From Candidatus Xenobia bacterium (lineage in GTDB: Bacteria; Vulcanimicrobiota; Xenobia; Xenobiales; QWHO01): 64,000 nucleotides of DNA. A program made the position numbers and the translations under genes. The notes beneath the pieces were generated by a model. The model saw nothing but the letters and a program-made list of their open reading frames with translations, made no database searches and was not told the origin of the DNA. Positions within the stretch are counted from its first letter, which is position 1. Every line of letters begins with the position of its first letter. Shown here piece by piece: positions 42,445-60,700 of the stretch. The DNA lies in contig BTUM01000005.1 in NCBI GenBank assembly GCA_045863235.1, positions 122,912 to 186,911 on the forward strand. The letters are read 5' to 3'.

Positions 42445-45012
42445 ATGCGAACGCTCGTCTGGGTTTTCCTGTTGGGGGCTACACTCTTGCTTGGCTGCGG
42501 AGAACAGGGCGGCCAGGCTGGGGGCGGCCAGGTCGTTGCTCCCCAGCCGACCACGGCCGACCTGAAGGTGATCCTCGATCTCGCTGGAGCCAGTGCAGTC
42601 CCACCCCAGGTCGGCTTCCCCGAGAGCGCCGCGAGCTTCGTGCTCGAGGTGGAGGACCCGGTGGCGGGAGGAGTGCTGGCCGGACCGGTGACCCTCGAGC
42701 GTCAGGCGGGCCAGGCTCGCCTGGAGCAGTTCTTCCCCGATCTGCCCGTCGGTCCGCTGCGGTTGCTGGTGACCACCCTGGACCCCCGGGGAGCCCGGCT
42801 GGGCCTGTCGGACCAGATCTTCAACCTGGCCGCGCCGGAGAGCCAGGCCACCATCTCCTCTTTGTTCATGCCCGGACCTACCCGGGAGATCGGGCTGATC
42901 AGCATCGGCCAGCAGGGGGTCAATGGCCCCAGCCGTCAGCCGGCCATCAGCAGCGACGGGCGTTTCGTGGCCTTCAGCTCCTCGGCCACCAACCTCCTCT
43001 CCACGCTCAGCACTGGCACCCCCGTCAACCGCATCTACGTGCGCGACCGCCTGACCGGCGTGGTCCGGCTCGGATCGCTGGTAAGCCCGACTTCCCAGAT
43101 CGGCGGTATTACGGACGGCACCTCGAACACGCTGCTCTTTTCCGAGACCAGCCCTCTGAACGGCTCCACTGCGGACGGAACCTCCAACACTCTGCTCTTC
43201 ACCGAGGTCACCGGGGGGGACCAGAAACCCGACCTGTCCGGGGACGGGCGCTTCGTGGTCTACGAGCGTCAGGTCGACCTTCGCAGCGGCACCGAGATCC
43301 ACATGCGCGATACCCGGGGGCGCCTGGCCAACAAGCTTACTCCTGCGACCATCGTGGTTGGAACGCAAACACTGACCATCGCCTCCGGATCCGATCCCCG
43401 CATCTCCGAGGACGGTCGCTTCGTGGTCTACACCGCGCGAATCACGGGCCAGCGCGACCAGATCGTTCTCTATGATCGCTTCAGCAACACCACGGTCCTG
43501 GCCACCGGCACGCTGTCGGCCGTGACTTGCAGCCGTCCGGTGATGACGCCCGACGCAGGGCAGATCTTCTTCTTCTCGGGTCAATTCTCCAGCGGTTTCG
43601 AGTTGCTGGTCCACAACCGCGCTGCCGCCACGACCACCCGCATCGGCCCCCTGTCCACCGAGAATGTCCCCTGCGCGGTCTCGCGAGACGGCAACCTGGT
43701 CGCGGTCAACTCCAGCCGGCGCCTGCTCTTGATCGACCGCACCCAGGGCACCACCACCGAACTCCCGCGTCCGGATGCCCTGGCCATCGAGGGAGCCCCC
43801 TCCCTGTCTGCGGACGGCCGATTCGTGACCTTCTGCTCGAGCCGGCCCGACCTGGTGTCCAACGACCTGAACGCTCGCAGGGATGCGTTCGTGCTCGACC
43901 GGTCCAACGGGGTCATCAGCCGCCTCAACGTGTCCAACGACGGCACGGCGGTAGAAGGCGGGGTGGAGCTCTCCGGACCGCCCGTCATCGCCCGCGACGG
44001 CTCGCGCATCGCCTTCGCCAGCGACGACACCCTGCTCGTCCCCAACGACAACAACAATGCCACCGACATCTTCAGCGCCGTCAACCCGACGACCGGTCGT
44101 CTCTACCTGGCCCAGCCCTCCTCCATCATGCGCTTCGACAACCTGGTGACGGCCCGGGAGACTCTGACGCCGGCCGCCACCATCACCAGCCCGTCGCTCG
44201 GACCGGCGACTGCCGATCTCTTCCTGGATACCCTCAATGACCGGTTGTATGTGGCTACGGGTCCCGGCGCGGTGGTGGATCGGGTGCTGGTTTTCGATCA
44301 GGCCAGCACGCTGAACGGCTCGGTGACCCCTGCCCTGGAGGTGGCTCTGCCGGTCCAGGGCCGCGGGCTTTTCCTGGATGCAGGCCGAGATACGGTCTTT
44401 CTGGGCAATACCATCCGTCGCAACATCTCGAGCACTCTCACGCTGAGTGGAAGCTCCGACGTGACCACGCTCCCCATCACCCCGACGGCGCTGCACGTGG
44501 ATACCCGACGGGCCGAGCTTTATGCGGCCAGTTTTCCCGGGCAGGTGGAGGTCTTTGCAGTCCAGGAGACCCCGGTTCGGGTTCGATTCCTGGACACGCT
44601 GGCCAACAGCATCGTGCGGGGCCTGGCGCTGGACATCTCTCCGGCTGGCATTTTGGGAGTTAACCGGGCCAACCTGATGGTGCAGGCCGACGGGAACCGG
44701 GCGGCGGGAACGGTGCCTCCCAACCAGCTGAACCGCCTGGCGCGCTTCTCCGGCAATGGCAGCGACCCCAACCAGGCTTTTGCTCTGGTCAACCTGCTGG
44801 CCGGCACCCGGACCCGCTTCGGAACCCCGCCCGCGACGATCGCACGCGGCACGGGCCCGCTGCAGCTCGATGTCTTCACCGGCACGGCCTATTCGGCCGA
44901 TTTTGCCCGGGTGCTGGTCTTTCCGGTCTCCGCCAATGGAGACGTGCTTCCCAGCCGGATCCTGCGTCCGGGATTCGGCCCTCGCGGGATGGCCATCGAC
45001 CGAACCCGGTAG
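42445..45012 (+). CDS. PD40/TolB-like beta-propeller lipoprotein with tandem DGTSNTLLF motifs
   Basis: Lipoprotein signal MRTLVWVFLLGATLLLGCG. Repeated PD40-like blades (ISSDGRFVAFSS, LSGDGRFVVYER, ISEDGRFVVYTA, LSADGRFVTFCS, IARDGSRIAFAS). Tandem ITDGTSNTLLFSET / TADGTSNTLLFTEV. Confidence 0.8.
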   Translation: MRTLVWVFLLGATLLLGCGEQGGQAGGGQVVAPQPTTADLKVILDLAGASAVPPQVGFPESAASFVLEVEDPVAGGVLAGPVTLERQAGQARLEQFFPDLPVGPLRLLVTTLDPRGARLGLSDQIFNLAAPESQATISSLFMPGPTREIGLISIGQQGVNGPSRQPAISSDGRFVAFSSSATNLLSTLSTGTPVNRIYVRDRLTGVVRLGSLVSPTSQIGGITDGTSNTLLFSETSPLNGSTADGTSNTLLFTEVTGGDQKPDLSGDGRFVVYERQVDLRSGTEIHMRDTRGRLANKLTPATIVVGTQTLTIASGSDPRISEDGRFVVYTARITGQRDQIVLYDRFSNTTVLATGTLSAVTCSRPVMTPDAGQIFFFSGQFSSGFELLVHNRAAATTTRIGPLSTENVPCAVSRDGNLVAVNSSRRLLLIDRTQGTTTELPRPDALAIEGAPSLSADGRFVTFCSSRPDLVSNDLNARRDAFVLDRSNGVISRLNVSNDGTAVEGGVELSGPPVIARDGSRIAFASDDTLLVPNDNNNATDIFSAVNPTTGRLYLAQPSSIMRFDNLVTARETLTPAATITSPSLGPATADLFLDTLNDRLYVATGPGAVVDRVLVFDQASTLNGSVTPALEVALPVQGRGLFLDAGRDTVFLGNTIRRNISSTLTLSGSSDVTTLPITPTALHVDTRRAELYAASFPGQVEVFAVQETPVRVRFLDTLANSIVRGLALDISPAGILGVNRANLMVQADGNRAAGTVPPNQLNRLARFSGNGSDPNQAFALVNLLAGTRTRFGTPPATIARGTGPLQLDVFTGTAYSADFARVLVFPVSANGDVLPSRILRPGFGPRGMAIDRTR

Positions 45013-45087
45013 CCCTGAAAAGCGCAAAGCCTTTTGGTCTTGGACTCTAACAGCGGCGGATGGGTGCGAGACCAATAGGCGAGCACA

Positions 45088-47190
45088 TTAGAATGGCTTC
45101 TTAACTAGCAGCTCCACATTGCGATCATTGGGATTGCCGATCTGGAACCCCAGCCCGCCCGGCTCGTTCTTGGTGGCCGGTTGGTCGAGGATCTGCGGGT
45201 CGTTGGCCGAGAGCTCACGGCTGATGGAGGCCAGGCTGAGAGGGTCGCCCGGGGCGCCGGTCTCGGGCGGGGCGGCCGTGTCCACCAGGGTCGCGAAGAT
45301 CGAGAGGGTGCCGTCCTGGTTGTCCACCAGCTCGACGATGCGGGCCTGCTGGGGGAAGTCGATCAGCGAGGGGCTGTTGACCTCCCAGAAGCCGCCCGTG
45401 CGGGCGGTCGGGTCCGGGTGGGGGAAGATACGGCAGTAGTGGGTGTGGCCGTTCAGCCAGGCCACAACGTTGGGATAGCGATGCAAGACCTGCTCGAACT
45501 GGCCGCCCAGCATGCGGATCTGGCCAGGGTTTTCGGGGTCGGGCAGCGCGTTGTCCATGGTCTCGATGCTGTGGTGGCTGAACAAGATGACCAGCTTGTC
45601 CTGGTTGCCTGTCTGGATCAGATTGCCGTTGGCGTCGTAGTAGCGACTGGAAACCTGCTGGATCTGCTGCTCCATCCAGGCCACCTGCTGCACGTCGATG
45701 GAGCCGTTGTTCTCGCCTCCCGGGTTGGTGGTATCCAGCGTCAGCCCGAGAATGCCGGGGGCCGGCTCGAAGGCGTAGTACATGTTGCCCGTCTGCAGGT
45801 TCTGAGCCGTGAACCCGTGCCCGACCGGTCCCGGTACGGCCGGCGTGTCCAGATGCGCCTGGATGAACTCGGTCCTCTGCAGGAGGTGTCGGGTAGGATC
45901 GGCGGTCACCTGCCGCGAGGGCGTGCTGGCCGCGGTCCAGTGACCGATGAAGGCGGGCCAGTCGTGGACCGAGTTGATGCCCAGCGGATCGAGGAACTCG
46001 GCCAGGAACAGGTCCACGCCGGAGCCTGTCTTGATTTTCTCGAGCAGTTGGAAGACTTGCGGCAGAGCCAGAATCTTGGTGGTGCTGGTGGCGATCTGGT
46101 TGAGCGCCATCTGCGGATTGAGATTGACCTTCTCGGGAAAGTTCCCCTGCAGGAGGTGGTCGTGGTTGCCGTATGCGCTGTAATAGGGAGTCTTCAACCC
46201 TTCAGCCTGGAAGGTCTGCACCGCGGCGGCCAGCAGGCCGGGGTAGTTGGGAAAGCCATAAGTCTGCTTGTACTGGTCCTGGGGGCCAGGCTCGGGGTGC
46301 CAGTATTCGGCCAGGAAGGGCTGGCTGTTGTCCTGGACCCCCTCGTAGAGATCCGGGTTTCCGGTCGATGGGGTGATCTGGCCCCCGTCGAGCAGGGTCA
46401 GGAAGCGCTCGAGCTCGGACTGGTGGCGGTTGTCGCCGTTGTCCCCGGTGAAGACGGCACAGTCGTACGGCCGACCGGTGGTCGGTCCGGCTCCGATGGA
46501 GTTGATCTGGCGGATCATCGCCTCGGTCACGAAGACCGTCAGCATCTCCTGGGGCCGCCAGGCAGCCTGGAACTCGGTCTTGGGCAAAAACGCGCCCACC
46601 AGGTTGCGCAGGAACTCGATGCGCAGGGGGCTCTCCTCGTCGATGATGTGGACGTCGGAGAAGTGAGGCATGCAGAGCAGGGAAACCCGCCGAGTCTCGC
46701 GATCGGGCTGAGCGGTGGCGCCAAGATCGGTGCGCACGACCTGGGTCCAGGCGGGGCCATAGGTGAGGGTCTTGTACTGCCCCGTGCCGGTGGTGACGAT
46801 GCTCCGATCGAGCGTGGTCGTGCCGACGAGGAGCAGGATCTCGGGATCGTCGATGCGGGTCACCTGATCGGGCTGTAGGCTGACGTCCTGCTCGTGCGTG
46901 CCCACCACCTGATCGCCGTCGAGGTACTCGATCCGGATTCGGTTGACGATGGTGGGCACGAGGACCCGGACCTGAGTGGCCTTGGGAAGGACGACCGGTC
47001 CGAAGACCGACTGGCCGACCTGAAATCCGGTGATGCGGAAGTCGCTCACCCGGTTGATGACGCCTCGGAACAGTGTGTGGTTGAGCTCGATGGTCGAGGT
47101 GGGCCCCCCGATGGCGGCGGGAACATCGTTTGAGCCGCCGCAGGCGGTGAAGATCAGGGTCAAAAGCAAGAGGAGAGCGAGGCGCTTCAA
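45088..47190 (-). CDS. Calcineurin-like metallophosphoesterase lipoprotein
   Basis: Motifs FTGDNGDNRH, YSAYGNHDH, NGHTHY. Start placed at TTG 47190 with RBS GGAAGGAGA-N7, giving MKRLALLLLLTLIFTACGG (lipobox). The track ORF start at 47520 is upstream read-through. Confidence 0.8.
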   Translation of the reverse strand: MKRLALLLLLTLIFTACGGSNDVPAAIGGPTSTIELNHTLFRGVINRVSDFRITGFQVGQSVFGPVVLPKATQVRVLVPTIVNRIRIEYLDGDQVVGTHEQDVSLQPDQVTRIDDPEILLLVGTTTLDRSIVTTGTGQYKTLTYGPAWTQVVRTDLGATAQPDRETRRVSLLCMPHFSDVHIIDEESPLRIEFLRNLVGAFLPKTEFQAAWRPQEMLTVFVTEAMIRQINSIGAGPTTGRPYDCAVFTGDNGDNRHQSELERFLTLLDGGQITPSTGNPDLYEGVQDNSQPFLAEYWHPEPGPQDQYKQTYGFPNYPGLLAAAVQTFQAEGLKTPYYSAYGNHDHLLQGNFPEKVNLNPQMALNQIATSTTKILALPQVFQLLEKIKTGSGVDLFLAEFLDPLGINSVHDWPAFIGHWTAASTPSRQVTADPTRHLLQRTEFIQAHLDTPAVPGPVGHGFTAQNLQTGNMYYAFEPAPGILGLTLDTTNPGGENNGSIDVQQVAWMEQQIQQVSSRYYDANGNLIQTGNQDKLVILFSHHSIETMDNALPDPENPGQIRMLGGQFEQVLHRYPNVVAWLNGHTHYCRIFPHPDPTARTGGFWEVNSPSLIDFPQQARIVELVDNQDGTLSIFATLVDTAAPPETGAPGDPLSLASISRELSANDPQILDQPATKNEPGGLGFQIGNPNDRNVELLVKKPF

Positions 47191-47523
47191 GAGAGAATCT
47201 CCTTCCGAGAGTGGGCATGCTTTCAGCGGGGACAGCAAGGGCTGACGAGTTTGGAATGCGGCGCGACGAGTCCTTCTTTCCCGAGATGCGGACTGGTAGG
47301 TTCCAGGTTCCCCGGTCCAGCACCAACACCCGGGTAAGACTCGTCGGTTCGCAGCTCTCCAGACCGCACCTGGACCCATCCTACTGCGGACAGACAGGGC
47401 CTGGGAGACAAGGGACGTGGGATTGACGACCTCCGTCATCTGCTGACTGACCAGGGGTTGACTTGATCCGATCGCTTGACACGGGTGCGAAATTCGGCCA
47501 CAAAGGTCTTGCGAGCACAATCG

Positions 47524-47913
47524 ATGAGCTTTCGGCGAAGAACCTGCTCGGGGGGAACCTGGCAGTGGCTGACCCTGCTCTTGTGGCTCGTTTTGTGCTC
47601 TCCGGGCCTGGCCGAGGACGACTTCTGTGGCCGACCCATCTGTTGCTCAGGTTGCGCCCAGGGCTGCTGTACGGGCGGGGTCTGTGGCGGGGCTGGAACC
47701 ACTGGTTGCCCGGACAACGCGGGCGTCAGCGGACGCTGCCAGCCTCTTGTGACCGAGCTTCCCGTCAGTTCCACCACCCGGCCGCCTGAGCTGGCCATCG
47801 CCCTCCCTTCGATGGCCCTGGCGCGTCAGCCCGATCCAGCTTTGTCGCTTCCCTTCGAGGCTCAATGGCCGCTCCGGCTGCTCGAGCCACCACCGGTCCC
47901 ACCTCCACGCTAG
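47524..47913 (+). CDS. Small secreted Cys-rich protein (hypothetical; possible metal-binding)
   Basis: ATG 47524 gives MSFRRRTCSGGTWQWLTLLLWLVLCSPGLA (signal-like), then CGRPICCSGCAQGCCTGGVCGGAGTTGCPDNAGVSGRC. The opposing ORF is low-complexity. Confidence 0.45.
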   Translation: MSFRRRTCSGGTWQWLTLLLWLVLCSPGLAEDDFCGRPICCSGCAQGCCTGGVCGGAGTTGCPDNAGVSGRCQPLVTELPVSSTTRPPELAIALPSMALARQPDPALSLPFEAQWPLRLLEPPPVPPPR

Positions 47914-47961
47914 AGCGACTCCGGCGCCCGCTCTCAGCACAAATTATGAGGAGGAGATCCA

Positions 47962-49056
47962 ATGAACCCCAGAACCAGGGGGCAAGCCTGGCTTGTCCTG
48001 TTGCTCCTTTGTTGTCTCTCGCTCCCGGCGCCGGCCGGCGAATGCGATTGCTCCGCCTGCCCCACCGAGGAGAATCCCACCACCGGGACCTGGACCCTGA
48101 CCATCGGCTACGACCACATGGACATGGGGACCCTGCTGCAAGGCTCCACCCGGGTCAGCCCCACTCAGGCAGCCCTGGACGGACTGGCGGCCAACGGCTC
48201 GCCCATGTTCGTGGTGCCCACCTCCATGCTCATGGAGCGCTTTGTCCTGCGGGCGCGCTACGCCCTGGACGAGCGCCAGAGCATCGGTCTGTCCCTGCCC
48301 CAGGTGCTCAACCAGATGGACATGCTGATGGTGATGGCCCCGATGCCCGCGGTCGGTCCGGGAATGGGCATGCCCGGAATGGGAATGCCCATGCCGGCCG
48401 CGGGTCCTACCTTCCGCTCGATGACGATGGACCCGATCAACCAACTGGGCGACATCGTGCTGCATTACTCCTACGACGTGATCGATGAGTCCGACGCTCG
48501 CCTGACGCTGGGAGTGGGCTTGAAGACCCCCACGGGCGATTCTCAGGTGCGCGACCCCAACGGGCGCTTGATTCACGCCATGATGCAGCCGGGCAGCGGG
48601 TCGTGGGACGCGGTGCTGACCGCCAGTGGACGCGTGGAGCTCGACGAGACCTGGGCCATCGAGCCCGCTCTGAGCTACCAGCTCACCAGTCGCAATGAGC
48701 TCGGCTACCGTTTCGGTAACCGATTCGGCTACGATCTGGGACTGCGCTGCCGGGTGCTCGAGCCCCTCACGCTGAGGCTCGACCTCAACGGTGTGGTGAC
48801 GGGTCGTGACAGCACCGACGGCACGCTCGACCCGGGGACCGGCACGGTCGCCTACCAGCGACCCGCCACTTCGCTCATCGACAACGTGCAGAACACCGGG
48901 CTCAGCACGCTCTACCTCTCGCCTGGTCTCACCTGGCGGATCGTGGACGAGGTCGGGGTGACGGTGCAGCACCGGATCCCCATCGCCCGCTCGGTCAACG
49001 GCACCCAGCTGGTGACCGACGGCTGGACCCAGATCCAGCTGAGCGGCAGCTTCTGA
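47962..49056 (+). CDS. Outer-membrane beta-barrel protein with Met-rich (MxM/MGMPGMGMPMP) segment; candidate metal (Cu) channel
   Basis: Signal peptide MNPRTRGQAWLVLLLLCCLSLPAPAG followed by ECDCSACP. Alternating beta-strand pattern with a terminal Phe (…QLSGSF). Met-rich insert MDMLMVMAPMPAVGPGMGMPGMGMPMPAAGP. Confidence 0.75.
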   Translation: MNPRTRGQAWLVLLLLCCLSLPAPAGECDCSACPTEENPTTGTWTLTIGYDHMDMGTLLQGSTRVSPTQAALDGLAANGSPMFVVPTSMLMERFVLRARYALDERQSIGLSLPQVLNQMDMLMVMAPMPAVGPGMGMPGMGMPMPAAGPTFRSMTMDPINQLGDIVLHYSYDVIDESDARLTLGVGLKTPTGDSQVRDPNGRLIHAMMQPGSGSWDAVLTASGRVELDETWAIEPALSYQLTSRNELGYRFGNRFGYDLGLRCRVLEPLTLRLDLNGVVTGRDSTDGTLDPGTGTVAYQRPATSLIDNVQNTGLSTLYLSPGLTWRIVDEVGVTVQHRIPIARSVNGTQLVTDGWTQIQLSGSF

Positions 49057-49062
49057 GGCGCC

Positions 49063-50103
49063 TCAGGCTGCCGCAGCCAGCCGCCAGCCGATGGGATCCT
49101 CCGGGTCCACGCCCTCAACGAAGGGGCGGTGACGCTCGAGGTGGGTGAGCTGGTAGACCAGACCCAGCCAGTTGTTGAAAACGGCCTTGCCGGTATCGCC
49201 CCAGGTGTTGTCCAGCAAGTCTTCCAGCTCGGCTTCGGGAAAGGTCTCCAGCTCACCCCGTCGGTAGCGCTCCGCCAGGGCCTCGGCCCCCGGGGGGAAG
49301 TAACCTTCCGGAAAGGGAGGCGGATGCGCCAGCTCGCCCGCCAGGTAGCGCAGCACCTCGCGCTTGTATTCCTTGAGCAGGCTGTTGAGGTCATACTCGG
49401 GATGGCCCTGCGAGTAGACGACGCGCAGACCGTCCGGGCTGACGGCCAGGTGCACCTCGTCGTGGTCGTCCAGGATTAGCGGCGTCACCCCGCACTGGCG
49501 CAGCCGCTCGGCGCTGACCGTGTTCCAGCGAGAGTGGGGCACGTCGAAGCGCGTGTTGATGTCGTGCAGCAAGGGGTGCTGCAGGCGTGCCTTGCGGTGG
49601 CGATAGACGCCCCAGCGCTTGGCAGGCAGCGGTTGGCGACGGATGCCGTAGAGGTGCTCGAGCACCGCGTGGCTGGCCAGGCACGAGCACCACACCGAGG
49701 TCACCCGGCGCGTGGCCCAGGCCAGCACCTCCATCAACGGTTCCCAGAAAGGCTCCTGGCGGAGGTCGGGCCGGGTGACGTTGGCCCCGGTCACGATCAG
49801 GGCGTCCAGGCCTTCGCTCTTGAGTTGCTCGAAGCTTCGATAGTGGCGGGCGATGTACTGCTCCGCCTCGGGGCTCCGGGGGAGGCCCGGCAGGCTGAAG
49901 GGGTGCACGTAGAACTGGGCGATCTGGTTGCAGTTTCCCACCAGCTTCAGGAACTGCCGCTCGGTGACCTGGAGGGCAGCGTCCGGCATCATGTTCAGGA
50001 AGCCGATGTGGAGCTCTCGGATGTCCTGGCGGGTGGCCTGCTCCAGCGACAGAGCCCCGGGAAGATTGAGGCTGGGCAGCTCGAGGTGGCGGACCAGCGG
50101 CAT
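49063..50103 (-). CDS. metA: Homoserine O-succinyl/acetyl-transferase MetA
   Basis: 346 aa. N-terminal IRELHIGFLNMMPD and the HTS-family architecture. Immediately downstream of metB with a 1-nt gap. Confidence 0.9.
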   Translation of the reverse strand: MPLVRHLELPSLNLPGALSLEQATRQDIRELHIGFLNMMPDAALQVTERQFLKLVGNCNQIAQFYVHPFSLPGLPRSPEAEQYIARHYRSFEQLKSEGLDALIVTGANVTRPDLRQEPFWEPLMEVLAWATRRVTSVWCSCLASHAVLEHLYGIRRQPLPAKRWGVYRHRKARLQHPLLHDINTRFDVPHSRWNTVSAERLRQCGVTPLILDDHDEVHLAVSPDGLRVVYSQGHPEYDLNSLLKEYKREVLRYLAGELAHPPPFPEGYFPPGAEALAERYRRGELETFPEAELEDLLDNTWGDTGKAVFNNWLGLVYQLTHLERHRPFVEGVDPEDPIGWRLAAAA

Positions 50104-50104
50104 C

Positions 50105-51283
50105 TCAGGCCACCTTTAGCCCGGCGGGCAGGGTGGCCGTGAGGGCAGCCTCGAGGTCAGCCTCGAGGTCCTCGGGGCACTCCAGGCCCACCGACAATCG
50201 CAAGAGCTGGCTGGAGATGCCCGCCGCCAGACGGGCGGCCTCGTCCATGGAGGCGTGGGTCATGCTGGCGGGATGGGCGATCAGGCTTTCCACCCCTCCC
50301 AGCGACTCGGCCAGGCTGAAGAAGCGCAGATTTTCGAGCAGGATGCGAAGCTCCGGCTCGCCGCCGGCCAACTCGAAGCTGATCATGGCCCCGAACCCGC
50401 TCTGCTGCTGGCAGGCCAGGGCGTGGCCCGGGTGGTCGGCCAGGCCCGGGTAGTAGACTTTCTCCACGGCAGGGTGCTGCTGCAAGAACCGGGCCAGCTC
50501 TCTGGCGCTCGTCTCTTGCTGGCGGATCCGCACCGGCAGGGTGCGCAGCCCGCGCAGGGTCTGGTAGCTGTCGAAGGGGGAGCCTGTGTTGCCGATGCAG
50601 TTGGCCCACCAGGCGAAGTCCTGGTGCAACTCAGCCGTGCGCGAGACCAGGGCGCCTCCCACCACGTCGCTGTGGCCATTGAGGTATTTGGTGGTGGAGT
50701 GGACCACCACGTCGGCGCCGAGCTCGAGCGGGCGCTGCAGCACCGGTGAGAGGAATGTGTTGTCGGCCGCAAAGAGCGTGCCGTGGGCCCGACAGAGCCG
50801 GGCCACCGCTCGCAGGTCGGTGAGGCGCAGCAGCGGGTTGCTGGGGGTCTCGACCAGGATCAGGCGGGGAGCCTCCTCGGCGAAGGCCGCCTCCAGGGCG
50901 GCCGGGTCGGTCTGGTTGACCAGCTTGAGGCGGAAGTAGCCTCGCTCGGCTTTGTTGCGCAGCAGCCTGTGAGTGCCTCCATAGCAGTCGTGGGGGGCGA
51001 GCAAGAGGTCGCCGGGCCGCAGCGCGTAGGTGAGAAGATCCAGGGCGGCCATGCCGGAGGAGGTGAGCACCGCTGCGTAGCCGCCCTCGAGCTTGCTGAT
51101 GGCTTCGGCGGTGACGTCGCGGGTGGGGTTGCCGCTGCGGGTGTAATCATACTGGCGTTTGCCCTGATAGCCGTCGAAGGTGTAGTTGCTGGAAAGATAC
51201 AGCGGGGGCATGACGGCTCCGTGGGCGCGATCCTGACCGACTCCGGTGCGGGCGGCGATGGTGCTACAGTTGGGTTCCGGCAT
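50105..51283 (-). CDS. metB: Cystathionine gamma-synthase / O-succinylhomoserine sulfhydrylase (PLP-dependent Cys/Met metabolism family)
   Basis: YTRSGNPTRDVTAEAISKLEGG...STTKYLNGHSDVVGGALV (PLP Lys in TTKYLNGH). RBS GGAGAG-N7-ATG. Confidence 0.9.
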   Translation of the reverse strand: MPEPNCSTIAARTGVGQDRAHGAVMPPLYLSSNYTFDGYQGKRQYDYTRSGNPTRDVTAEAISKLEGGYAAVLTSSGMAALDLLTYALRPGDLLLAPHDCYGGTHRLLRNKAERGYFRLKLVNQTDPAALEAAFAEEAPRLILVETPSNPLLRLTDLRAVARLCRAHGTLFAADNTFLSPVLQRPLELGADVVVHSTTKYLNGHSDVVGGALVSRTAELHQDFAWWANCIGNTGSPFDSYQTLRGLRTLPVRIRQQETSARELARFLQQHPAVEKVYYPGLADHPGHALACQQQSGFGAMISFELAGGEPELRILLENLRFFSLAESLGGVESLIAHPASMTHASMDEAARLAAGISSQLLRLSVGLECPEDLEADLEAALTATLPAGLKVA

Positions 51284-51398
51284 AACGAGCTCTCCTTTTG
51301 TCTGGTCTGGAGAACCATCGCGACCAGCCGGGCGGTTGCGCTTCCAAGAGAGGTCGCGTTGCGACCTGAATTGCGCTGAGCGCCTTCTTCGCGCTCAT

Positions 51399-51515
51399 CG
51401 CCTCATCTCTCGGCGAAACTCGCCGCAGGACTTGGCACCTTAATCCGCTTTGGGCGGAACAGGTTGCCCCAGCTTCACAGGGCCTGAACCCTCGACTGGT
51501 CTTGATGATTGGTTC
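51399..51515 (-). promoter_or_regulatory. SAM-I (S-box) riboswitch aptamer in the metB-metA leader
   Basis: Minus-strand RNA AAUCAUCAAGACCAGUCGAGGGUUCAGGCCCUGUGAAGCUGGGGCAACC...AAGGUGCCAAGUCCUGCGGCGAGUUUCGCCGAGAGAUGAGG matches the S-box consensus blocks (AUCAAGAG, GAGGGA, GGCCC, UGAAGC, GGCAACC, GGUGCCAA.UCCUGC, GAGAGAUGAG, P1 CAUC/GAUG). The downstream platform has hairpins and a CUCUC anti-SD candidate against GGAGAG. Confidence 0.85.
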
Positions 51516-51520
51516 TTCCC

Positions 51521-51549
51521 AGAGTAGGGGAGAAGGGGGCTTTTGTCAA
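51521..51549 (-). promoter_or_regulatory. Candidate promoter TTGACA-N17-TACTCT driving the riboswitch/met operon
   Basis: On the minus strand, TTGACA (51549..51544), a 17-nt spacer, then TACTCT (51526..51521), about 6 nt before the aptamer 5' end. Confidence 0.45.
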
Positions 51550-51870
51550 TACCAGCGCCCGCGGTCGCATCACGAACGGGAGGGATACCTTGACCGACAT
51601 GAACTTTACGAGCGATACTATCGTACCTTCGTTTGTTGTATGCGCTGAAGGAGTGGCGTAAACATTGGGTTCCCGCGGGAATGAAACGGGGTGACCAACA
51701 CCGTTGAGACCCAAATCGGCCGGGTCCGGCGATTTGGTCCCCGTGTGGTCCCCAACCATCGGCCTGCCAGCCGAAGCTGCCCGAGAAGTCTACAACAGAG
51801 TGAAGCCGACCTGCTCTCTTTCTGCCAGTAGCTCGGAGGAGCACTGGCTTCATCTCTTGAAAATTGCCCT

Positions 51871-55221: not shown

Positions 55222-55352
55222 GCCGGCAAGGGTAGCACGGCGCTCTGAAAATGATCTGAAAGTTCATCCACAGTTTACCAACAGCCCCCCCTGTTCACGT
55301 TATCGTGACGTTGTTGTTCTCGGGGGAGCAGCTCAGAAAACGAGGAGGACCC

Positions 55353-57590
55353 ATGATCCGCGACCTGCAGAATTTCGCCCTCAACACCAACCAGGCTGTC
55401 ACCCGCCCGAGCTGCTCGTGCGGATCGTGCGCAAAGTGCGCCCCGAAGGCCGCCGATCCGAAGGAGACGGTGGAGCTCGGCTCCTCCTCCCCCAAGTCGG
55501 CTCCTCAACTGAGCTTACAGTCTCGCATCGCCTCGGTGTCGGCCGAGGCCGCCCACCTCGAGCAGAAGCTCAACGAGCACGTCGAGGGCGAGGTGATCGT
55601 CAAGCTCAAGCCGGGCAGCCAGGGCCTGGATGACTTCGCGGCCGAGTTCGGTGGTCAGACCCTGCACAAGTTCGACATCCCCAAGGACATCTACCAGAGC
55701 TTCGGCGGCGACCTGCTGCACATCAAGCTGCCGGCCGGCATGAGCACGGCCGCGGGCATCGCCCTGATGAGCAAGGACGAGCGGGTGGCCTACGCCACCA
55801 CCAACGACGTCCTCAAGGCCCTGGGCGACCCGGTCGGCCCCAACGACCTCGACCCCAAGCTGTGGGGCCTGCACAACACCGGCCAGAACGGCGGCACCGC
55901 CGACGCCGACATCGACGCCCCCGAGGCCTGGGCCACCAGCATCGGCTCGCGCTCGGGCCCGGTCATCGCGGTGATCGACACGGGCGTGGACTACAACCAC
56001 CCCGACCTTCGCGCCAACATCTGGACCAACCCCAACGAGATCCCTGGTGACGGTATCGACAACGACAACAACGGCGTGGTGGACGACGTGCACGGTTACA
56101 ACGCCATCAATGGCTCGGGCAACCCGATGGACGACCACTATCACGGCACCCACTGCGCCGGCACCATCGGTGCCGAGGGCAACAACGGCCAGGGCGTGGT
56201 GGGCGTGCAGTGGGAAGCGCAGATCATGCCGGTCAAGTTCCTCTCGGGTTCGGGCAGCGGCACCCTGGCCGACGCCGTCAAGGCCATCCTTTACGCCGGG
56301 CGCAACGGAGCCCGCATTACCTCCAACTCGTGGGGCGGCGGCGGCTACAACCAGGCGCTCTATGACGCCCTGAAGAGCTCGCCCAGCCTGCACATCTTCG
56401 CGGCCGGCAACGAGTCCAACAACAACGACCGTCGTCCCGCCTACCCGGCCAGCTACGACCTGCCCAACATCGTCAGCGTGGGCGCCTCGGACAAGAACAA
56501 CCGCCAGGCTTCCTTCTCGAACTACGGCGCCAAGACGGTCGACCTGCACGCCCCGGGCGTGGACATCTACTCCACCGTCACCAATGGCGGCTACCGCAAC
56601 CTGTCGGGCACGTCGATGGCCTGCCCCCACGTCTCGGGCGTGGCCGGCCTGATCGCCACCGCCTATCCCGACGCCACCAACGACCAGATCAAGGCTCGCC
56701 TGATGAACGGCGCCGTCAAGGTGCCCGCCTTCGAGGGCAAGTCGGTTACCGGCGGCCTCTTGAACGCGCCTAACTCGCTCGACAACGACAGCCGTCCCCC
56801 GGCCGCGCCCAACGACTTCCGCGTCAGCGGCTCCACGGCCAACTCGGTCACCTTGAACTGGACGGCCACCGGCGACGACGGCTGGTGCGGACAGGCCTCG
56901 GGCTACGAGGTGCGCCTCGCGGACAAGCCCATCGTGGACGGCGAGGCGGCCGAGAACCAGGTGAGCTTCGACGAGGCGGCCTCGGTTCCGACCGGCTCTC
57001 CTTCGGCCACCGGCACCATCGAAGGCGCCACCATCAGCGTGCCGCTCTCGGATACCGACAAGACCTACCACGTGGCTCTCAAGGTGACCGATAACGTGGG
57101 CAACCGCTCGGAGATCCGCACCGCCGAAGTGCGCGTTCCGGCCGCCACGGTGGCCTTCAAGGACGACTTCGAGGGCGAAGAGGCCAACTTCACCCCCGAG
57201 GGCCAGTGGGGCCGGGTCGAGATCGAGGGCCGGGGCAAGGTCTGGACCGACACCCCCAACGGAAACTACGACAACAGCCAGAACACCTCGCTGACCTCGC
57301 GGGCCATCGACCTGGGGAACCTGTCGGGCAGCACCCTGGTGTTCGACTCCAAGATCGACTCCGAGCAGAACTACGACAAGGCCAACATCGAGGTCAGCAC
57401 CGACGGTCAGACCTGGAACAAGCTGGCCGAGCTGACCGGGCAGCAGGACTGGACCAAGCAGCAGGTCGACCTGTCGGCCTACGACGGCCAGAGCGTGCAG
57501 GTGCGCTTCCGCTTCCAGTCCGATAGCTCCCAGGTGGGCGACGGGTTCTACCTCGACAACGTGATGATCGCCGGCTCGCCGCGCCAGTAG
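55353..57590 (+). CDS. Subtilisin-like serine protease (S8) with I9 propeptide, FN3-like and C-terminal MAM-like domain (paralog C)
   Basis: Start ATG 55353 with RBS GGAGGA-N5. Triad blocks VIDTGVDYNHPDL, HGTHCAGTIGAEG, GTSMACPHVSGVAGLI. FN3-like (VTLNWTATGDDG). MAM-like C-terminus (WGRVEIEGRGKVWTDTP...YDKANIEVSTDGQTWNKL...GFYLDNVMI). N-terminus MIRDLQNF plus Cys-rich SCSCGSCAKC, no signal peptide. About 70% identity to paralog A across the catalytic domain. Confidence 0.9.
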   Translation: MIRDLQNFALNTNQAVTRPSCSCGSCAKCAPKAADPKETVELGSSSPKSAPQLSLQSRIASVSAEAAHLEQKLNEHVEGEVIVKLKPGSQGLDDFAAEFGGQTLHKFDIPKDIYQSFGGDLLHIKLPAGMSTAAGIALMSKDERVAYATTNDVLKALGDPVGPNDLDPKLWGLHNTGQNGGTADADIDAPEAWATSIGSRSGPVIAVIDTGVDYNHPDLRANIWTNPNEIPGDGIDNDNNGVVDDVHGYNAINGSGNPMDDHYHGTHCAGTIGAEGNNGQGVVGVQWEAQIMPVKFLSGSGSGTLADAVKAILYAGRNGARITSNSWGGGGYNQALYDALKSSPSLHIFAAGNESNNNDRRPAYPASYDLPNIVSVGASDKNNRQASFSNYGAKTVDLHAPGVDIYSTVTNGGYRNLSGTSMACPHVSGVAGLIATAYPDATNDQIKARLMNGAVKVPAFEGKSVTGGLLNAPNSLDNDSRPPAAPNDFRVSGSTANSVTLNWTATGDDGWCGQASGYEVRLADKPIVDGEAAENQVSFDEAASVPTGSPSATGTIEGATISVPLSDTDKTYHVALKVTDNVGNRSEIRTAEVRVPAATVAFKDDFEGEEANFTPEGQWGRVEIEGRGKVWTDTPNGNYDNSQNTSLTSRAIDLGNLSGSTLVFDSKIDSEQNYDKANIEVSTDGQTWNKLAELTGQQDWTKQQVDLSAYDGQSVQVRFRFQSDSSQVGDGFYLDNVMIAGSPRQ

Positions 57591-57605: not shown

Positions 57606-57640
57606 AAAAGAGCACCGCTCGCGAGGGCGGTGCTCTTTTT
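57606..57640 (+). terminator. Rho-independent terminator
   Basis: GAGCACCGC-TCGCGAGG-GCGGTGCTC hairpin followed by TTTTT, 16 nt after the paralog C stop. Confidence 0.75.
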
Positions 57641-57701
57641 CACGCTGCGCCGGCCTGAAGGCCAGAAAGGGCTGGAGCCCGAAACTACTACGAGGACGAG
57701 C

Positions 57702-60700
57702 ATGGGACAGAGGGGGTGCCTGGTGGCCATCGAGGACTTGAACGCAGTCGCCCGCGCCGCTCAAGAGTCCGGCCAGTTGCGCCGGCCACCCCGGCCTGTC
57801 GAAGAGCAGGCTCCCCCTCCCGCGGCTCCGGCCGGGCCAAAGGCCCAAGAAGAGCTGGAGCTGAGCGGACCCTCTCGCCAGATTCAGGCCCGCGAGGAGC
57901 TCGAGCAATCGCTCGAGGGGGTGGTTTCCAGCTCCCCCGCGCCTGCAGAGCCGCCCCGGCGTCTCGAAGCCATGAAGGCCCGCCAGCAGCTCGAGGGGGG
58001 CTTGCAGGACATTGTCGGCCAGGAGACACCGGCGGCCGAAGCTGAGGTCGGCCAGGCATCCGAAGCTCAGCTGCCGCCGAGAGCGGCGCCCGAGAAGGGC
58101 CAGGGTACGCTTCCTCCCACCCTCTGGAACGAGCACGCCGTCAACACCGTCAACCAGAAGGGCCTCGAGCAAGGCTCTATTTCGCAAGAGCAGATCGATC
58201 GCAATACGAAGCTGGCCGAAGAGCACGGGGCCCGTGGGGGAGGGCTGGACCTGGCCAGCCTGGCCCGCGAGGTGGGTGTGGAGCCGGCGCGACTTGACCC
58301 CAACCAACTCGAGGCAGCTCGGCGCTACGTCGAGGACGGCGATCCGGCCCAGCAGTCCGAGCGCCTGCGCAAGGCGCTGAACAACCTCAACGTGCTCGAT
58401 CAGGGCGGACTTCCGAAGATGAGCCGCCAGGAGACCAACGACCTGATGTGGGGAGTGGCCCGGGTTCCGGGCCACGCCACTCAGAAGCTGGACGAGCAGG
58501 GACTGAGCCAGACCTTCCAGGAGGTGGCCGCGGCCGTGGCCTCGCCCGGTCAGCACAAGCTCAAGGTCGGCCAGCACACCCTGGAGATGAAGGTCGACCA
58601 GAGCGGCCAGGTGACCGAGTCGGAGACGAAGGCGCCCAGCGCGCTGAGCAAGATCGGCGGCTTCCTCAAGACGGCCATCCCGGTGGCGGCCACCGTGGCC
58701 GCCTTCATCCCGGGCGTAGGCACGGCCGTGGCCGCCGGCCTGCGCATCGCCTCCTCGGCCATTTCAGGCATCAGCGCCATCAAGGACAAGAACTTCCTGG
58801 GCGCGCTGGGAGCCGTGGCCGGGGGCGTGGGGGCAGGCTTCAGCCTGGGCAGCTCGGCTGCCGCCGCCCGGGTGGCCAGCGTGGCCGATTCCGTGGGTGC
58901 CGGCTCGCGCGGGGTCCAGAGCATCAAGCAGGGCGGCGTGCTCGGCGTGGTCGGGGGCGTGGCCGGTGTGGCCGGGGCGGCCGCGGGTCTTTCGGGGCTC
59001 GACGACGCCGGTAAGGTCCAGGACATCTCCGGCAAGGTGTCCACCACGGCCAATCGAGTGGAGACAGCTCAGCGCTTCCGCACCGCCAGCGGAGCGGTGG
59101 AGCAGGCCGAGCAGCAGCTGACCGCGGCCCGCGCAACGGGCGACGCGGCCGCCATCGCGCGGGCCGAGAAGCAGCTCGACGAGGCCCGCCGCCTCAAGCA
59201 GACGGCCCTGCTGGCCGGGCTGGGGACGGCGGCCGAGGTGGGAGCGGCCCACACCTCCGGGGGCGCCTCCAACGCTCTGGGCTATGCCTCGCGGGGGCTC
59301 GACCTGACGGCTGACCTGAAGAACAAGGATTACCTGGGAGCGGCTGCCTCGGCCACCGGCATCGCAGCCCGGGCTTCCGGCTCGCAGAGCCTGCAGGACG
59401 CCTCCCGGGTGGCCGACCAGAGCAACAACTTCCGCCTGGCCAGCCAGGCCGAAAGCCGGGCCCGGCAGGCCCTGCAGGACGCCGAGCGCAACCTGCAGCT
59501 GGCCCGCAACTCGGGCGACCCCGAGGCCGTGCGCCAGGCCGAGCAGGCGCTCTCCTCGGCTCGCGAGCAGCGCGATTTTGCGCAGAGTAACAGCTACTTT
59601 GCCGGTGACCAGATGGCCCGCACGGGTCAGGCCATCGGCCAGCGGATCGAGACCGATCGCCGATTCCAGGCCAACCTCAAGGAGCTGCAACCCTCTCTGG
59701 ATCAGGCTCGCCAGGCCTCTGACCAGCTTGAGGCAGCCGCCCGCAATCCCCGGGCCACGGGCGGGTTCCAGGACCTGGCGGCGCAAGCTCGCGCCGGCCT
59801 GCAGTCGGCCGAGGGCGAGCTGGCCGATGCCCTCGCGAGCGGCGACAAGAGCCGCATCGCCGAGGCTCGGGGGCGTTTTGAGGCCGCCAGCAGCCTGGCC
59901 TCGGAGCGAGCCCGACTGATCGAGGCAGCGGTGGCGCCGGCGGCTCTGCCCACTGCTGGTCTGGCGACAAGCTTGACGTTGCCCCCCGGCCAGCCCCCGG
60001 TCCAGGTCCAGGGCTCGCCAGCCCCTTCCGGCAACCGGGCCCAGCTTCCCAGGGCCGGGGTCAGGCCGCCCCTGGCGGCCCCCCAGCCGACCTCCGAGCC
60101 GTCCGAGCCGGGCCGGGTCTCGCCCTCCTGGGTGTTCGACGAGTCGCGCTACGAGATCCCGGCCAGCGGCAAGTACGTCCTGGGGCCTGACGGTCGGCCT
60201 TACGACGAGTCCGGCCAGCCCATTGCAGTGCGCCCCGTGGCGCCGGGCGACTATCGCGAGGCCGGGATGCGCTTGCTCGAGCACGAGCTCAGCTCCAACC
60301 TGCCCAACACCACCGATCGGCGTCGCCCTCAGGACGTGCTGGCCCTGGTCATGGCCGCCCGCGGGGGCGACAACGGAGGTCCGGTGGATCAAACGGCGCG
60401 CGAGACCATCCGCCAGATCGTGGGCCGCGAGCTCACGGCCCAGGAGTATGGCGATCTCGATCACTATATCGACGGCTGGACTCACGTCGAGGCAACTCCC
60501 GCCGGCGGGGCGCTCAACAGCTTGCAGCGAGGGGCCAGCGCGGTCACGGGCTCGGCAGGCTACGTCTACTGGACCGCCCTCAAGGGTTACTCCCAACTGC
60601 GGGGCGGAAGCAGCGTCGCGGGAGCCTACCAGAACAGCGAGAACACCTCCCGGGCCAACTGGCGGAACTACAACTCCTACAACGTGGGAGCCATCGACGC

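What the first reader, a model, noticed from the sequence alone, without database searches (positions are those of the whole stretch)
42445..45012. PD40 propeller lipoprotein carrying tandem DGTSNTLLF motifs (planctomycete H-X9-DG/DUF1559-like signature in an atypical context)
The duplicated (T/A)DGTSNTLLF(S/T)E motif is the hallmark C-terminal motif of the large planctomycete/PVC DUF1559 (H-X9-DG) protein family. Those proteins normally have a pilin-like N-terminus. Here the motif occurs twice inside a TolB-like beta-propeller lipoprotein encoded directly downstream of subtilase paralog B. This is both a taxonomic hint (with the Tat-sulfatase/maturase pair and lipobox-rich proteome) and an unusual domain context.
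Basis: partly seen in the sequence, partly recalled or inferred. Interest (0 to 1): 0.5.

Follow-up and report, generated by a model that had tools for sequence, protein, structure and literature searches.

The report
Portable DGTSNT motif in propeller lipoprotein
A two-propeller lipoprotein from an Eremiobacterota (class Xenobia) bacterium, not a planctomycete, carries two copies of a 15-residue peptide that is known as the central signature of DUF1559 pilin-like proteins and that also turns out to be a free-standing repeat in many small secreted proteins.

Summary
ORF 42445-45012 (+) encodes an 855-aa lipoprotein with DGTSNTLLF at residues 224-232 and 244-252.

- The motif is the central DUF1559 signature, not the C-terminal H-X9-DG motif.
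- The Pfam DUF1559 match is below threshold (19.5 vs 23.3 bits) and covers 18 of 268 profile positions.
- No prepilin or H-X9-DG model matches.
- The contig is a Candidatus Xenobia MAG (Vulcanimicrobiota/Eremiobacterota), outside the PVC group.

The protein has a signal peptide with lipobox, a beta-sandwich, a roughly 7-bladed PD40 propeller and a second propeller. The motif copies lie in the loop between blades 1 and 2.

Orthologs that are 35-45% identical overall keep DGTSNT[IL] at this site. Copy number is 0, 1, 2 or 3, so the peptide is under selection.

A whole-library search with the 48-aa insert found 78 representative proteins, and 76 are built from 1-9 motif copies (74 with two or more). 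Twenty-eight have PEP-CTERM tails and only one has a pilin N-terminus. One comes from an Acidobacteriota-like contig.

The motif is therefore a portable extracellular module. Its function was not determined. My best guess is an exposed, multivalent binding hairpin. I rate this a modestly interesting new variant of a known kind.

The parts
42445..45012 (+). Gene for an 855-aa lipoprotein with a beta-sandwich and two beta-propellers
   Evidence: ORF. GC3 is 0.83, typical of coding sequence here. It is 100% identical to NCBI AMXMBFR33_11130 of Candidatus Xenobia. AF2 model: mean pLDDT 74.6, pTM 0.70.
42445..42498 (+). Signal peptide and lipobox (MRTLVWVFLLGATLLLGC, lipidated Cys18 predicted)
   Evidence: Read directly from the sequence. 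An equivalent [LVA][GA]C is present in P0002, P0004, P0092, P0110, P0120 and L008.
42553..42855 (+). N-terminal all-beta domain (aa 37-137), beta-sandwich-like
   Evidence: AF2 strands 37-45, 64-70, 77-85, 92-101, 103-112, 118-128 and 132-137, with pLDDT mostly 80-95. No Pfam hit.
42889..44082 (+). PD40-type beta-propeller (aa 149-546, about 7 blades)
43096..43206 (+). Insertion between blade 1 and blade 2 (aa 218-254) that holds both motif copies
   Evidence: Absent in P0003, P0084, P0092, P0110 and P0120 in alignment A1. pLDDT is below 50 and no secondary structure is assigned.
43102..43146 (+). Motif copy 1, GGITDGTSNTLLFSE (aa 220-234)
   Evidence: It scores 28.1 bits against an 18-position HMM built from 343 repeat instances of unrelated tandem-repeat proteins. 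PF07596 profile positions 158-175.
43165..43206 (+). Motif copy 2, STADGTSNTLLFTE (aa 241-254)
   Evidence: It scores 19.0 bits against the same repeat HMM.
44098..45000 (+). Second beta-propeller-like domain (aa 552-852), followed by the conserved C-terminal tail ...AIDRTR
   Evidence: AF2 shows all-beta structure with pLDDT 45-89. The repeated NDRLYV / ASTLNG..P.R motifs and the invariant D852 R853 appear in A1. This domain recurs at 26-53% identity (best tblastn segment) in many soil MAG proteins.
40156..42399 (+). Upstream S8 subtilase (Fervidolysin-type prodomain, Peptidase_S8, InhA-like MAM domain), 45 nt before the lipoprotein gene
   Evidence: Pfam. Identical to AMXMBFR33_11120. The adjacency is kept only in the closest relative L008, and there with two extra ORFs in between. 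It is not kept for P0002, P0003 or P0004.

Best explanation
The gene encodes an envelope lipoprotein of a Candidatus Xenobia bacterium (Vulcanimicrobiota/Eremiobacterota). Its architecture is signal peptide with lipobox, an N-terminal beta-sandwich, a roughly 7-bladed PD40 propeller, and a second propeller that ends in a conserved ...DRTR tail.

The loop joining blades 1 and 2 of the PD40 propeller carries two copies, 20 residues apart, of a roughly 15-residue module with consensus G-G-I-T-D-G-T-S-N-T-[IL]-L-F-G-E.

This module is neither a DUF1559 domain nor the H-X9-DG motif. It is the short central signature of DUF1559. The same peptide also exists on its own as a tandem repeat, usually 4-5 copies, in many small secreted proteins. 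Many of those are PEP-CTERM-anchored and almost none have a pilin N-terminus.

Within the Xenobia lipoprotein family the module sits at one fixed site. It is conserved far above background, and its copy number varies from 0 to 3.

Shown: the architecture, taxonomy, site, conservation, copy-number variation, and the portability of the module.

Inferred: the module is a solvent-exposed element displayed on the propeller, probably a beta-hairpin. Its invariant polar residues (D, S, N, T, E) may contact a ligand, which could be a metal ion, a glycan or a partner protein of the cell envelope or matrix. Duplication would then raise valency. The two propellers would act as the scaffold, perhaps capturing polymers or peptides in a locus rich in secreted subtilases.
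For: Architecture.

Taxonomy.

Not a DUF1559 domain: PF07596 scores 19.5 bits against a cut-off of 23.3, over 18 of 268 positions. A true member scores 181.8 bits over positions 1-267, and also matches N_methyl and TIGR04294. There are no such hits in the window protein or the excised insert. hhalign of the whole family against DUF1559 gives Prob 0.15%.

The motif similarity is real: hhalign of the motif-bearing segment against DUF1559 gives Prob 94.3%, E 1e-7.

Fixed site and selection: the window, P0002 (DGTSNTIFVGE), L033 (DGTSNTILVGE), L035 (DGTSNTILFGE) and P0004 (DGSVNTIVSGE) all carry the motif in the same inter-blade loop, although they are 35-45% identical overall. P0003 lacks it and L008 has three copies. 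Synonymous codon differences separate the two window copies. None of the other 116 top PD40 hits carries the motif.

Portable repeat: phmmer of the 48-aa insert against 1.84 billion representatives found 78 proteins at E<=1e-3, the best at 1.7e-14, each with 2-10 matched stretches. Seventy-four have two or more copies and 58 have 4-5. The consensus is GGITDGTSNTILFGE and the most common spacing is 27-33 aa. All 76 scanned reach PF07596 only through repeated hits at profile positions around 155-180. Twenty-eight match PF07589 PEP-CTERM and one matches N_methyl. Window copy 1 scores 28.1 bits on a repeat HMM, above the median DUF1559 central motif at 20.7 bits.
Against: No structure is available for the module. 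AF2 gives pLDDT below 50 and no secondary structure for aa 218-254, so it may be disordered. The AF2 model of a DUF1559 protein failed (pLDDT 43). The PDB holds no DUF1559 globular domain.

The proposed hairpin, ligand binding and valency are pure inference.

The module is dispensable in at least one ortholog (P0003).

Gene neighbourhood is not conserved among orthologs, so there is no guilt-by-association support for a protease-linked role.

The nearest relative, L008, has an out-of-frame deletion of the PD40 propeller, and the gene diverges faster than its flanks. That fits relaxed constraint as well as adaptive change.
Confidence: 0.6

Rival explanations
1. The protein is related to the planctomycete DUF1559/H-X9-DG pilin-like family, and the motif marks the genome as PVC.
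For: Motif-level similarity to PF07596 (E 0.0011; hhalign Prob 94.3% on the segment). P0002's DGTSNTIFVGE fits the DUF1559 motif as sampled here at all 11 positions: it is the commonest residue at 10 of them, and T at the third motif position is a minority variant (15 of 108, against L 71).
Against: The score is below the Pfam gathering threshold and covers only 18 of 268 positions. No prepilin N-terminus and no H-X9-DG match were found. The whole-family profile comparison is negative. The motif is central in DUF1559, not C-terminal. The organism is Candidatus Xenobia, Vulcanimicrobiota. No prepilin-type N-terminal motif occurs in any frame of the window or of the roughly 500 kb of fetched loci.
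Confidence: 0.03
2. Convergence in situ. The peptide evolved from the ordinary PD40 inter-blade loop, which often reads S-x-DG-T-Q-A-N-G. It is simply a favourable DG-turn hairpin, and its resemblance to DUF1559 and to the repeat proteins is coincidental and has no shared function.
For: The consensus of 73 PD40 relatives shows VSVxSxGxQxNGxS at the equivalent blade junctions, and MAFFT aligned G225 with the DG of PD40 repeats. The window protein's own later loop reads VSNDGTAVEGG. YVTN-type propeller repeats in L015 read V(T/A)VIDG(A/S)(S/T)NT, and P0004 has VDGTSNTLLRS inside its C-terminal propeller. Propeller hairpins can therefore drift to this sequence.
Against: The match extends over about 15 positions, including the GG-IT prefix and the F-[GS]-E suffix. 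It scores 28.1 and 26.0 bits on a repeat HMM, while 116 other PD40 proteins score nothing. The peptide is tandemly amplified to 2 or 3 copies, which is how the free-standing repeat behaves.
Confidence: 0.2
3. Functionless linker or decaying gene. The insert is a disordered, Ser/Thr/Pro-rich spacer that expands and contracts neutrally in a fast-evolving gene that is partly pseudogenised.
For: pLDDT is below 50 for aa 218-254. The insert is absent in P0003. L008 has an out-of-frame deletion. The gene is 73-77% nt identical between the window and L008, while the flanks are 82-93%.
Against: The core DGTSNT[IL] is kept across orthologs that are 35-45% identical, while the flanking linker residues change completely. 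Four of the ten conserved core codons differ synonymously between the two window copies. The window ORF is intact.
Confidence: 0.12
4. The module links the lipoprotein to a type IV pilus-like machine. It would mimic or dock onto pilin-like subunits that carry the same motif.
For: The motif's best-known home is a prepilin-like family. The ortholog P0002 starts 9 nt after the second of two PilT/PilU ATPase genes, which score 404 and 386 bits on TIGR01420 against a cut-off of 319.
Against: This neighbourhood is seen for one ortholog only. No pilin-like gene is present in the window or the loci. 75 of the 76 free-standing repeat proteins lack a pilin N-terminus.
Confidence: 0.05

Closest known systems
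DUF1559 / PF07596 (SBP_bac_10) prepilin-like proteins of Planctomycetota and relatives, with the TIGR04294 H-X9-DG C-terminal motif
   Same: They share the roughly 13-15 residue central peptide [IV]TDG[TLM]SNT[IL]x[VF]GE. There is also a weak resemblance in a preceding F-x-R-[DN]-[RS] strand.
   Different: The window protein has no prepilin N-terminal helix or methylation motif, no H-X9-DG motif, and no match to the other roughly 250 profile positions. Its fold (propellers), anchoring (lipobox) and phylum are all different.
Unnamed tandem 'DGTSNT-repeat' proteins, found here as 76 representative clusters. Many are 200-260 aa with a signal peptide and a PEP-CTERM tail (e.g. P0252, P0253, P0259, P0262). 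Some alternate DGTSNT with DGSVRF (P0257).
   Same: They carry the same module with the same extended consensus GGITDGTSNT[IL]LFGE. They are arranged in tandem and predicted to be extracytoplasmic.
   Different: Those proteins consist almost entirely of repeats, usually 4-5 copies spaced 27-33 aa, often with a conserved Cys in each unit. They are exosortase-type substrates. Here only two copies, 20 aa apart, are grafted into a loop of a large globular lipoprotein, and there is no PEP-CTERM.
PD40 / TolB-like and protease-associated beta-propellers (TolB, trilobed and tricorn protease propellers, S9 peptidase propellers)
   Different: It is not TolB: TIGR02800 scores 37 bits against a cut-off of 343. 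It has no peptidase domain. It has an added N-terminal sandwich, a second propeller and the motif insert. Full-length relatives were found only in the Vulcanimicrobiota/Eremiobacterota lineage.

Membership tests
DUF1559 (Pfam PF07596, SBP_bac_10) | Whole-protein score at or above the gathering threshold (23.3 bits), with the match spanning the domain | tested here: not met
   19.5 bits, E 0.0011, aa 219-236 against profile positions 158-175 of 268. The positive control P0148 scores 181.8 bits over positions 1-267.
DUF1559 (Pfam PF07596, SBP_bac_10) | Prepilin-type N-terminal cleavage/methylation motif (PF07963 / TIGR02532) | tested here: not met
   No hit at E<=1. The N-terminus is a lipoprotein signal peptide. 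The control P0148 matches both models.
DUF1559 (Pfam PF07596, SBP_bac_10) | C-terminal H-X9-DG motif (TIGR04294) | tested here: not met
   No hit in the protein or in the excised insert at E<=10. The control scores 30.6 bits at aa 295-317.
DUF1559 (Pfam PF07596, SBP_bac_10) | Central DG[TLM]SNT[IL]..GE peptide | tested here: met
   Two copies. hhalign of the segment against a DUF1559 alignment gives Prob 94.3%, E 1e-7.
Free-standing DGTSNT tandem-repeat proteins (unnamed; defined here) | Two or more tandem copies that match the repeat consensus GGITDGTSNT[IL]LFGE | tested here: met
   Copies score 28.1 and 19.0 bits on an HMM built from 343 repeat instances. The insert retrieves 78 such proteins at E<=1e-3 from 1.84 billion representatives.
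Free-standing DGTSNT tandem-repeat proteins (unnamed; defined here) | A protein made essentially of repeats, frequently with a PEP-CTERM sorting tail | tested here: not met
   The repeats occupy 37 of 855 residues. The C-terminus is ...GMAIDRTR, with no PEP motif or TM segment. 28 of the 76 repeat proteins match PF07589.
PD40 beta-propeller repeat proteins (PF07676) | PD40 repeat match above threshold and a propeller fold | tested here: met
TolB (TIGR02800 equivalog) | Equivalog score at or above 343 bits; the Tol-Pal operon context was not examined | tested here: not met
   37.1 bits. The neighbours are a subtilase and a metallophosphoesterase.
Bacterial lipoproteins | Signal peptide ending in a lipobox [LVI][ASTVIL][GAS]C | tested here: met
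   LLLG-C18. The Cys and lipobox are conserved in orthologs. Lipidation itself cannot be tested with these tools.
PVC superphylum origin | The contig is assigned to Planctomycetota, Verrucomicrobiota or relatives | tested here: not met
   100% identity of two adjacent proteins to a Candidatus Xenobia MAG. Xenobia belongs to Vulcanimicrobiota, Bacillati. Orthologs lie on Vulcanimicrobiota/Eremiobacterota contigs. No independent core-gene phylogeny was run.

The most novel reading that the evidence does not exclude
GGITDGTSNT[IL]LFGE is an autonomous, portable extracellular module, a 'DGTSNT repeat', with one conserved molecular function. That function might be coordinating a metal ion or binding a cell-surface glycan or partner. 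The module has been deployed in three unrelated scaffolds: DUF1559 pilin-like proteins, PEP-CTERM exosortase substrates, and Xenobia propeller lipoproteins. If so, the small repeat proteins and this lipoprotein would give a tractable handle on the unknown function of the very large DUF1559 family.
Probability: 0.25. Interest if true: 0.6.

Novelty: new variant of a known kind. Interest (0 to 1): 0.4.

Why it matters
DUF1559 is among the largest paralogous families in planctomycete genomes, and it has no known function. Full-text searches returned 4 papers for DUF1559, 1 unrelated paper for H-X9-DG and none for DGTSNT; I did not open the DUF1559 papers. No solved structure covers its globular part.

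Three results here bear on that family:
- Its most conserved internal peptide is a separable unit that also exists as a tandem repeat in secreted proteins outside the PVC group.
- The same peptide has been grafted into a propeller loop and kept there under selection.
- Pfam's PF07596 model scores repeat-only proteins as family members purely by summing motif hits.

Together these change how the motif should be read. It is not a taxonomic marker and it is not evidence of a pilin.

The results also point to small experimental targets, namely the 200-aa repeat proteins, for finding what the motif binds.

For the window itself the practical outcome is a corrected annotation. The protein is a Xenobia envelope lipoprotein with two propellers. 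It is not a planctomycete-type protein.

Tried and rejected
(1) A word-index search with the 54-aa insert failed twice. The first attempt had an invalid E-value.

(2) AF2 of a genuine DUF1559 protein (P0148, 48-sequence alignment) was meant to show the motif's native conformation. It gave pLDDT 43 and is unusable.

(3) A PDB sequence search with the lipoprotein gave no hit. With a DUF1559 profile, only N-terminal pilin helices matched.

(4) hhalign of the whole family against DUF1559 was negative, because the insert columns are gaps in most rows.

(5) The subtilase-plus-large-protein pairs in the window might have been paralogous modules, but BLASTP shows the 967-aa and 1057-aa proteins are unrelated to this one.

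(6) Conserved operon context was not found. Orthologs sit next to PilT genes, ECF sigma/anti-sigma genes or a response regulator. The contexts of two repeat proteins are uninformative.

(7) The promoter and terminator scan was uninformative, and TRF found no DNA-level repeat.

(8) Literature searches found nothing on the motif.

(9) The afdb50 fold library was unavailable.

(10) I checked N- and O-glycosylation sequons by eye. D/E-x-N-x-S/T and D-S/T-hydrophobic do not fit D-G-T-S-N-T-[IL], so I rejected them.

(11) Exact-sequence look-up of metA, metB and E1 failed, probably because my start codons differ from the deposited ones. The taxonomy therefore rests on two adjacent proteins and on the ortholog contigs.
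Full report
OBSERVATION

The ORF at 42445-45012 (+) is real. It has an ATG start, encodes 855 aa, and has a GC3 of 0.83, like the other genes of the window.

- The N-terminus, MRTLVWVFLLGATLLLGC, is a signal peptide ending in a lipobox. The Cys and lipobox recur in orthologs.
- DGTSNTLLF occurs at aa 224-232 and 244-252, within GGITDGTSNTLLFSE and STADGTSNTLLFTE. It occurs nowhere else in the six frames of the window.
- From the protein's own composition, 1.7e-4 occurrences of DGTSNT are expected.
- The two 20-codon units share 38/60 nt. Within the 12-residue core, 10 residues are identical and four of those use different codons, while the flanks have diverged. TRF sees no DNA repeat.
- The duplication is therefore old and is maintained at the protein level.

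WHAT THE PROTEIN IS

- Pfam finds PD40 (49.8 bits). NCBIfam gives only a far sub-threshold TolB match, 37 bits against a cut-off of 343.
- An AlphaFold2 model built on 73 sequences has mean pLDDT 74.6 and pTM 0.70. It shows a beta-sandwich (aa 37-137), a high-confidence propeller (about aa 149-546) and a second all-beta propeller-like domain (aa 552-852).
- Foldseek against the PDB returns tandem-propeller proteins, TolB and an S9 peptidase propeller.
- The motif region (aa 218-254) is the main low-confidence stretch inside the first propeller. It has pLDDT below 50 and no secondary structure is assigned.

TAXONOMY

- The protein is 100% identical to 'AMXMBFR33_11130 [Candidatus Xenobia bacterium]' on a 193-kb contig. 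The upstream subtilase is AMXMBFR33_11120.
- Xenobia is a class of Vulcanimicrobiota (Eremiobacterota), in the kingdom Bacillati.
- Full-length homologs lie on Vulcanimicrobiota MAG contigs (L009, L010). Another lies on a contig whose neighbouring gene clusters at 90% or more with Eremiobacterota proteins.
- The PVC inference is therefore wrong. One caveat: the closest relative (L008) belongs to a MAG labelled 'uncultured Burkholderiales'. I take this for a mislabel, because L008 is collinear with the window at 82-93% nt identity.

RELATION TO DUF1559

- PF07596 matches at 19.5 bits, below the 23.3-bit gathering score. It covers aa 219-236 against profile positions 158-175 of 268.
- For calibration I retrieved real DUF1559 proteins, using a probe sequence I wrote from memory. 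The hits are real database proteins.
- P0148 of Fimbriiglobus ruber scores 181.8 bits over profile positions 1-267, with N_methyl at aa 8-33 and the H-X9-DG model TIGR04294 at aa 295-317. Its DGLSNT motif is at about aa 214.
- 108 of the 120 sampled DUF1559 proteins carry the motif, at mean relative position 0.63. An H-x9-DG pattern was found in 68 of them, at 0.88.
The window protein has only the central one, and has neither a prepilin N-terminus nor H-X9-DG.
- Whole-family profile-profile comparison with DUF1559 is negative (Prob 0.15%).
- An alignment of only the motif-bearing segments of orthologs gives Prob 94.3%, E 1e-7 over 33 columns. The peptide-level similarity is genuine, but it is confined to the peptide.

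ORTHOLOGS

Only about ten full-length relatives appeared among several thousand PD40 hits. More came from the genome and metagenome scans. The motif always lies in the same insertion between blade 1 and blade 2.

| Ortholog | Motif at the blade 1-2 site | Copies |
|---|---|---|
| Window | GGITDGTSNTLLFSE and STADGTSNTLLFTE | 2 |
| P0002 | IGDGTSNTIFVGE | 1 |
| L033 / L034 | AADGTSNTILVGE | 1 |
| L035 | FTDGTSNTILFGE | 1 |
| P0004 | FPDGSVNTIVSGE (degenerate) | 1 |
| P0003 / L009 | none | 0 |
| L008 | three tandem copies | 3 |
| Four more distant paralog-like sequences | none | 0 |

- The proteins are 35-45% identical overall, yet the core is nearly invariant while the linker residues around it change completely. 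This indicates purifying selection on the peptide together with copy-number flux.
- None of the other 116 best PD40 hits has the motif.
- Gene neighbourhood is not conserved. P0002 follows two PilT/PilU genes, P0003 follows an ECF sigma/anti-sigma pair, and P0004 follows a response regulator. The subtilase adjacency holds only for the window and, loosely, for L008.

THE MOTIF IS A PORTABLE REPEAT

- A full HMMER scan of 1.84 billion representative proteins with the 48-aa insert returned 78 proteins at E<=1e-3. Ten were at E<=1e-10, and each had 2-10 matched stretches.
- Two are spurious. The other 76 are built from tandem copies of the same peptide.
- Copy number is usually 4-5. The consensus is G-G-I-T-D-G-T-S-N-T-I-L-F-G-E, and spacing is mostly 27-33 aa.
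- Most are 200-260 aa long, and the examples read have a signal peptide. Pfam finds a PEP-CTERM tail in 28 of 76, and a prepilin motif in only one.
- All 76 reach PF07596 only by summing hits at profile positions around 155-180. No NCBIfam family model covers them.
- Some proteins (P0257 and others) alternate DGTSNT with GDGSVRF, which is the H-X9-DG-type peptide.
- One carrier is from a Planctomycetes MAG. Another sits on a contig whose neighbours are at least 90% identical to Bryobacter/Acidobacteriota proteins.
- An 18-position HMM built from 343 repeat instances scores window copy 1 at 28.1 bits, copy 2 at 19.0 and P0002 at 26.0. The median for the central motifs of the sampled DUF1559 proteins is 20.7.
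- The window insert is thus at least as good a member of the free-standing repeat class as the DUF1559 motif is.

MECHANISM

Shown:
- The protein is a lipoprotein scaffold of two propellers.
- It displays two copies of a selected, portable peptide in an inter-blade loop.

Inferred:
- Established propeller topology places the loops that join successive blades on one face of the disc, which is often the ligand-binding face.
- The invariant D, S, N, T and E residues alternate with hydrophobic positions.
- From these two points I propose an exposed beta-hairpin-like binding element whose duplication raises valency. The ligand could be a metal ion, a glycan or an envelope protein.
- I put about 0.3 on this mechanistic part and about 0.85 on the descriptive part.

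Rivals:
- In-situ convergence from the ordinary PD40 loop (S-x-DG-T-Q-A-N-G). This is supported and by the YVTN-type 'VIDGASNT' hairpins of L015.
- A neutral disordered linker in a fast-evolving gene.
- A link to type IV pili.

COMPARISON AND NOVELTY

- The protein is a PD40-propeller lipoprotein, which is a known kind. It carries an unusual graft.
- It fails three of the four defining features of DUF1559.
- It fails the 'repeat-only, PEP-CTERM' architecture of the tandem-repeat proteins.
- The new points are the propeller context and, more generally, the recognition that the DUF1559 central peptide is a separable repeat module found outside the PVC group.
- I rate it a new variant of a known kind, with interest 0.4.

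Noticed in passing
window 31923-33305, 36944-39178, 40156-42399, 55305-57590: Four S8 subtilase genes lie in 26 kb. Three have a Fervidolysin-type prodomain and an InhA-like MAM C-terminal domain. Two are followed by large proteins with no Pfam or NCBIfam hit (33334-36237, 967 aa; 57630-60803, 1057 aa). Those two are unrelated to the propeller lipoprotein and barely related to each other.
   Followed up: partly
window 42445-45012 and orthologs (alignment A1): The lipoprotein family has an invariant TREIG just before propeller 1. It also has a conserved extreme C-terminus, A(L/I)DRTR, which could be a sorting or processing signal.
   Followed up: no
L001 5474-10415: The ortholog P0002 starts 9 nt after the second of two tandem PilT/PilU-family ATPase genes (TIGR01420 404 and 386 bits). 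This looks like an operon that links a motif-bearing propeller protein to pilus retraction ATPases.
   Followed up: partly
L008 1-12538 against window 41264-51554: The closest relative is collinear with the window: the S8 gene is 93% nt identical and the flanks 82-88%. Its lipoprotein gene is only 73-77% identical, has three motif copies, and lacks the stretch equivalent to window 43141-44126 (blades 2-7) out of frame. It also has two extra small membrane-protein ORFs upstream and a 734-aa ORF (not characterised here) downstream. This is either a pseudogene or a misassembly. The MAG is labelled 'uncultured Burkholderiales', which is probably wrong.
   Followed up: partly
P0257, P0297, P0323, P0325 (proteins): These proteins alternate DGTSNT..GE with GDGSVRF, the H-X9-DG-type peptide, and end in PEP-CTERM. 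P0257 has 5 matched TIGR04294 stretches (93 bits). Both DUF1559 signature peptides therefore occur together as free repeats and may pair structurally.
   Followed up: partly
P0250, P0258, P0263, P0279, P0289, P0311, P0316: This is a second architecture that carries 3-9 DGTSNT repeats. The proteins are 380-840 aa long and end in a conserved tail..QCQxGxxNCxxLxR..G. P0250 and P0258 also share an N-terminal domain. No Pfam or NCBIfam family other than summed PF07596 motif hits matched the two that were scanned individually (P0250 and P0258).
   Followed up: no
Pfam PF07596 behaviour: PF07596 passes its gathering threshold on proteins that contain nothing but repeated copies of an 18-25 residue stretch of the profile. 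Some 'DUF1559 domain-containing protein' annotations may therefore not be pilin-like proteins at all.
   Followed up: partly
It is not specific to the PVC group.
   Followed up: no
window 45088-47520 (-): A TIGR03767-family metallophosphoesterase (501 bits) is convergent with the lipoprotein gene. Its likely true start gives a lipobox (..LLLLTLIFTAC). The gene is conserved next to the lipoprotein gene in L008.
   Followed up: no
L015 6599-7400: A Candidatus Angelobacter (Acidobacteriota) YVTN-type propeller protein has blade hairpins that read V(T/A)VIDG(A/S)(S/T)NT. Similar DG-x-S/T-N-T turns therefore arise in ordinary propeller repeats.
   Followed up: no
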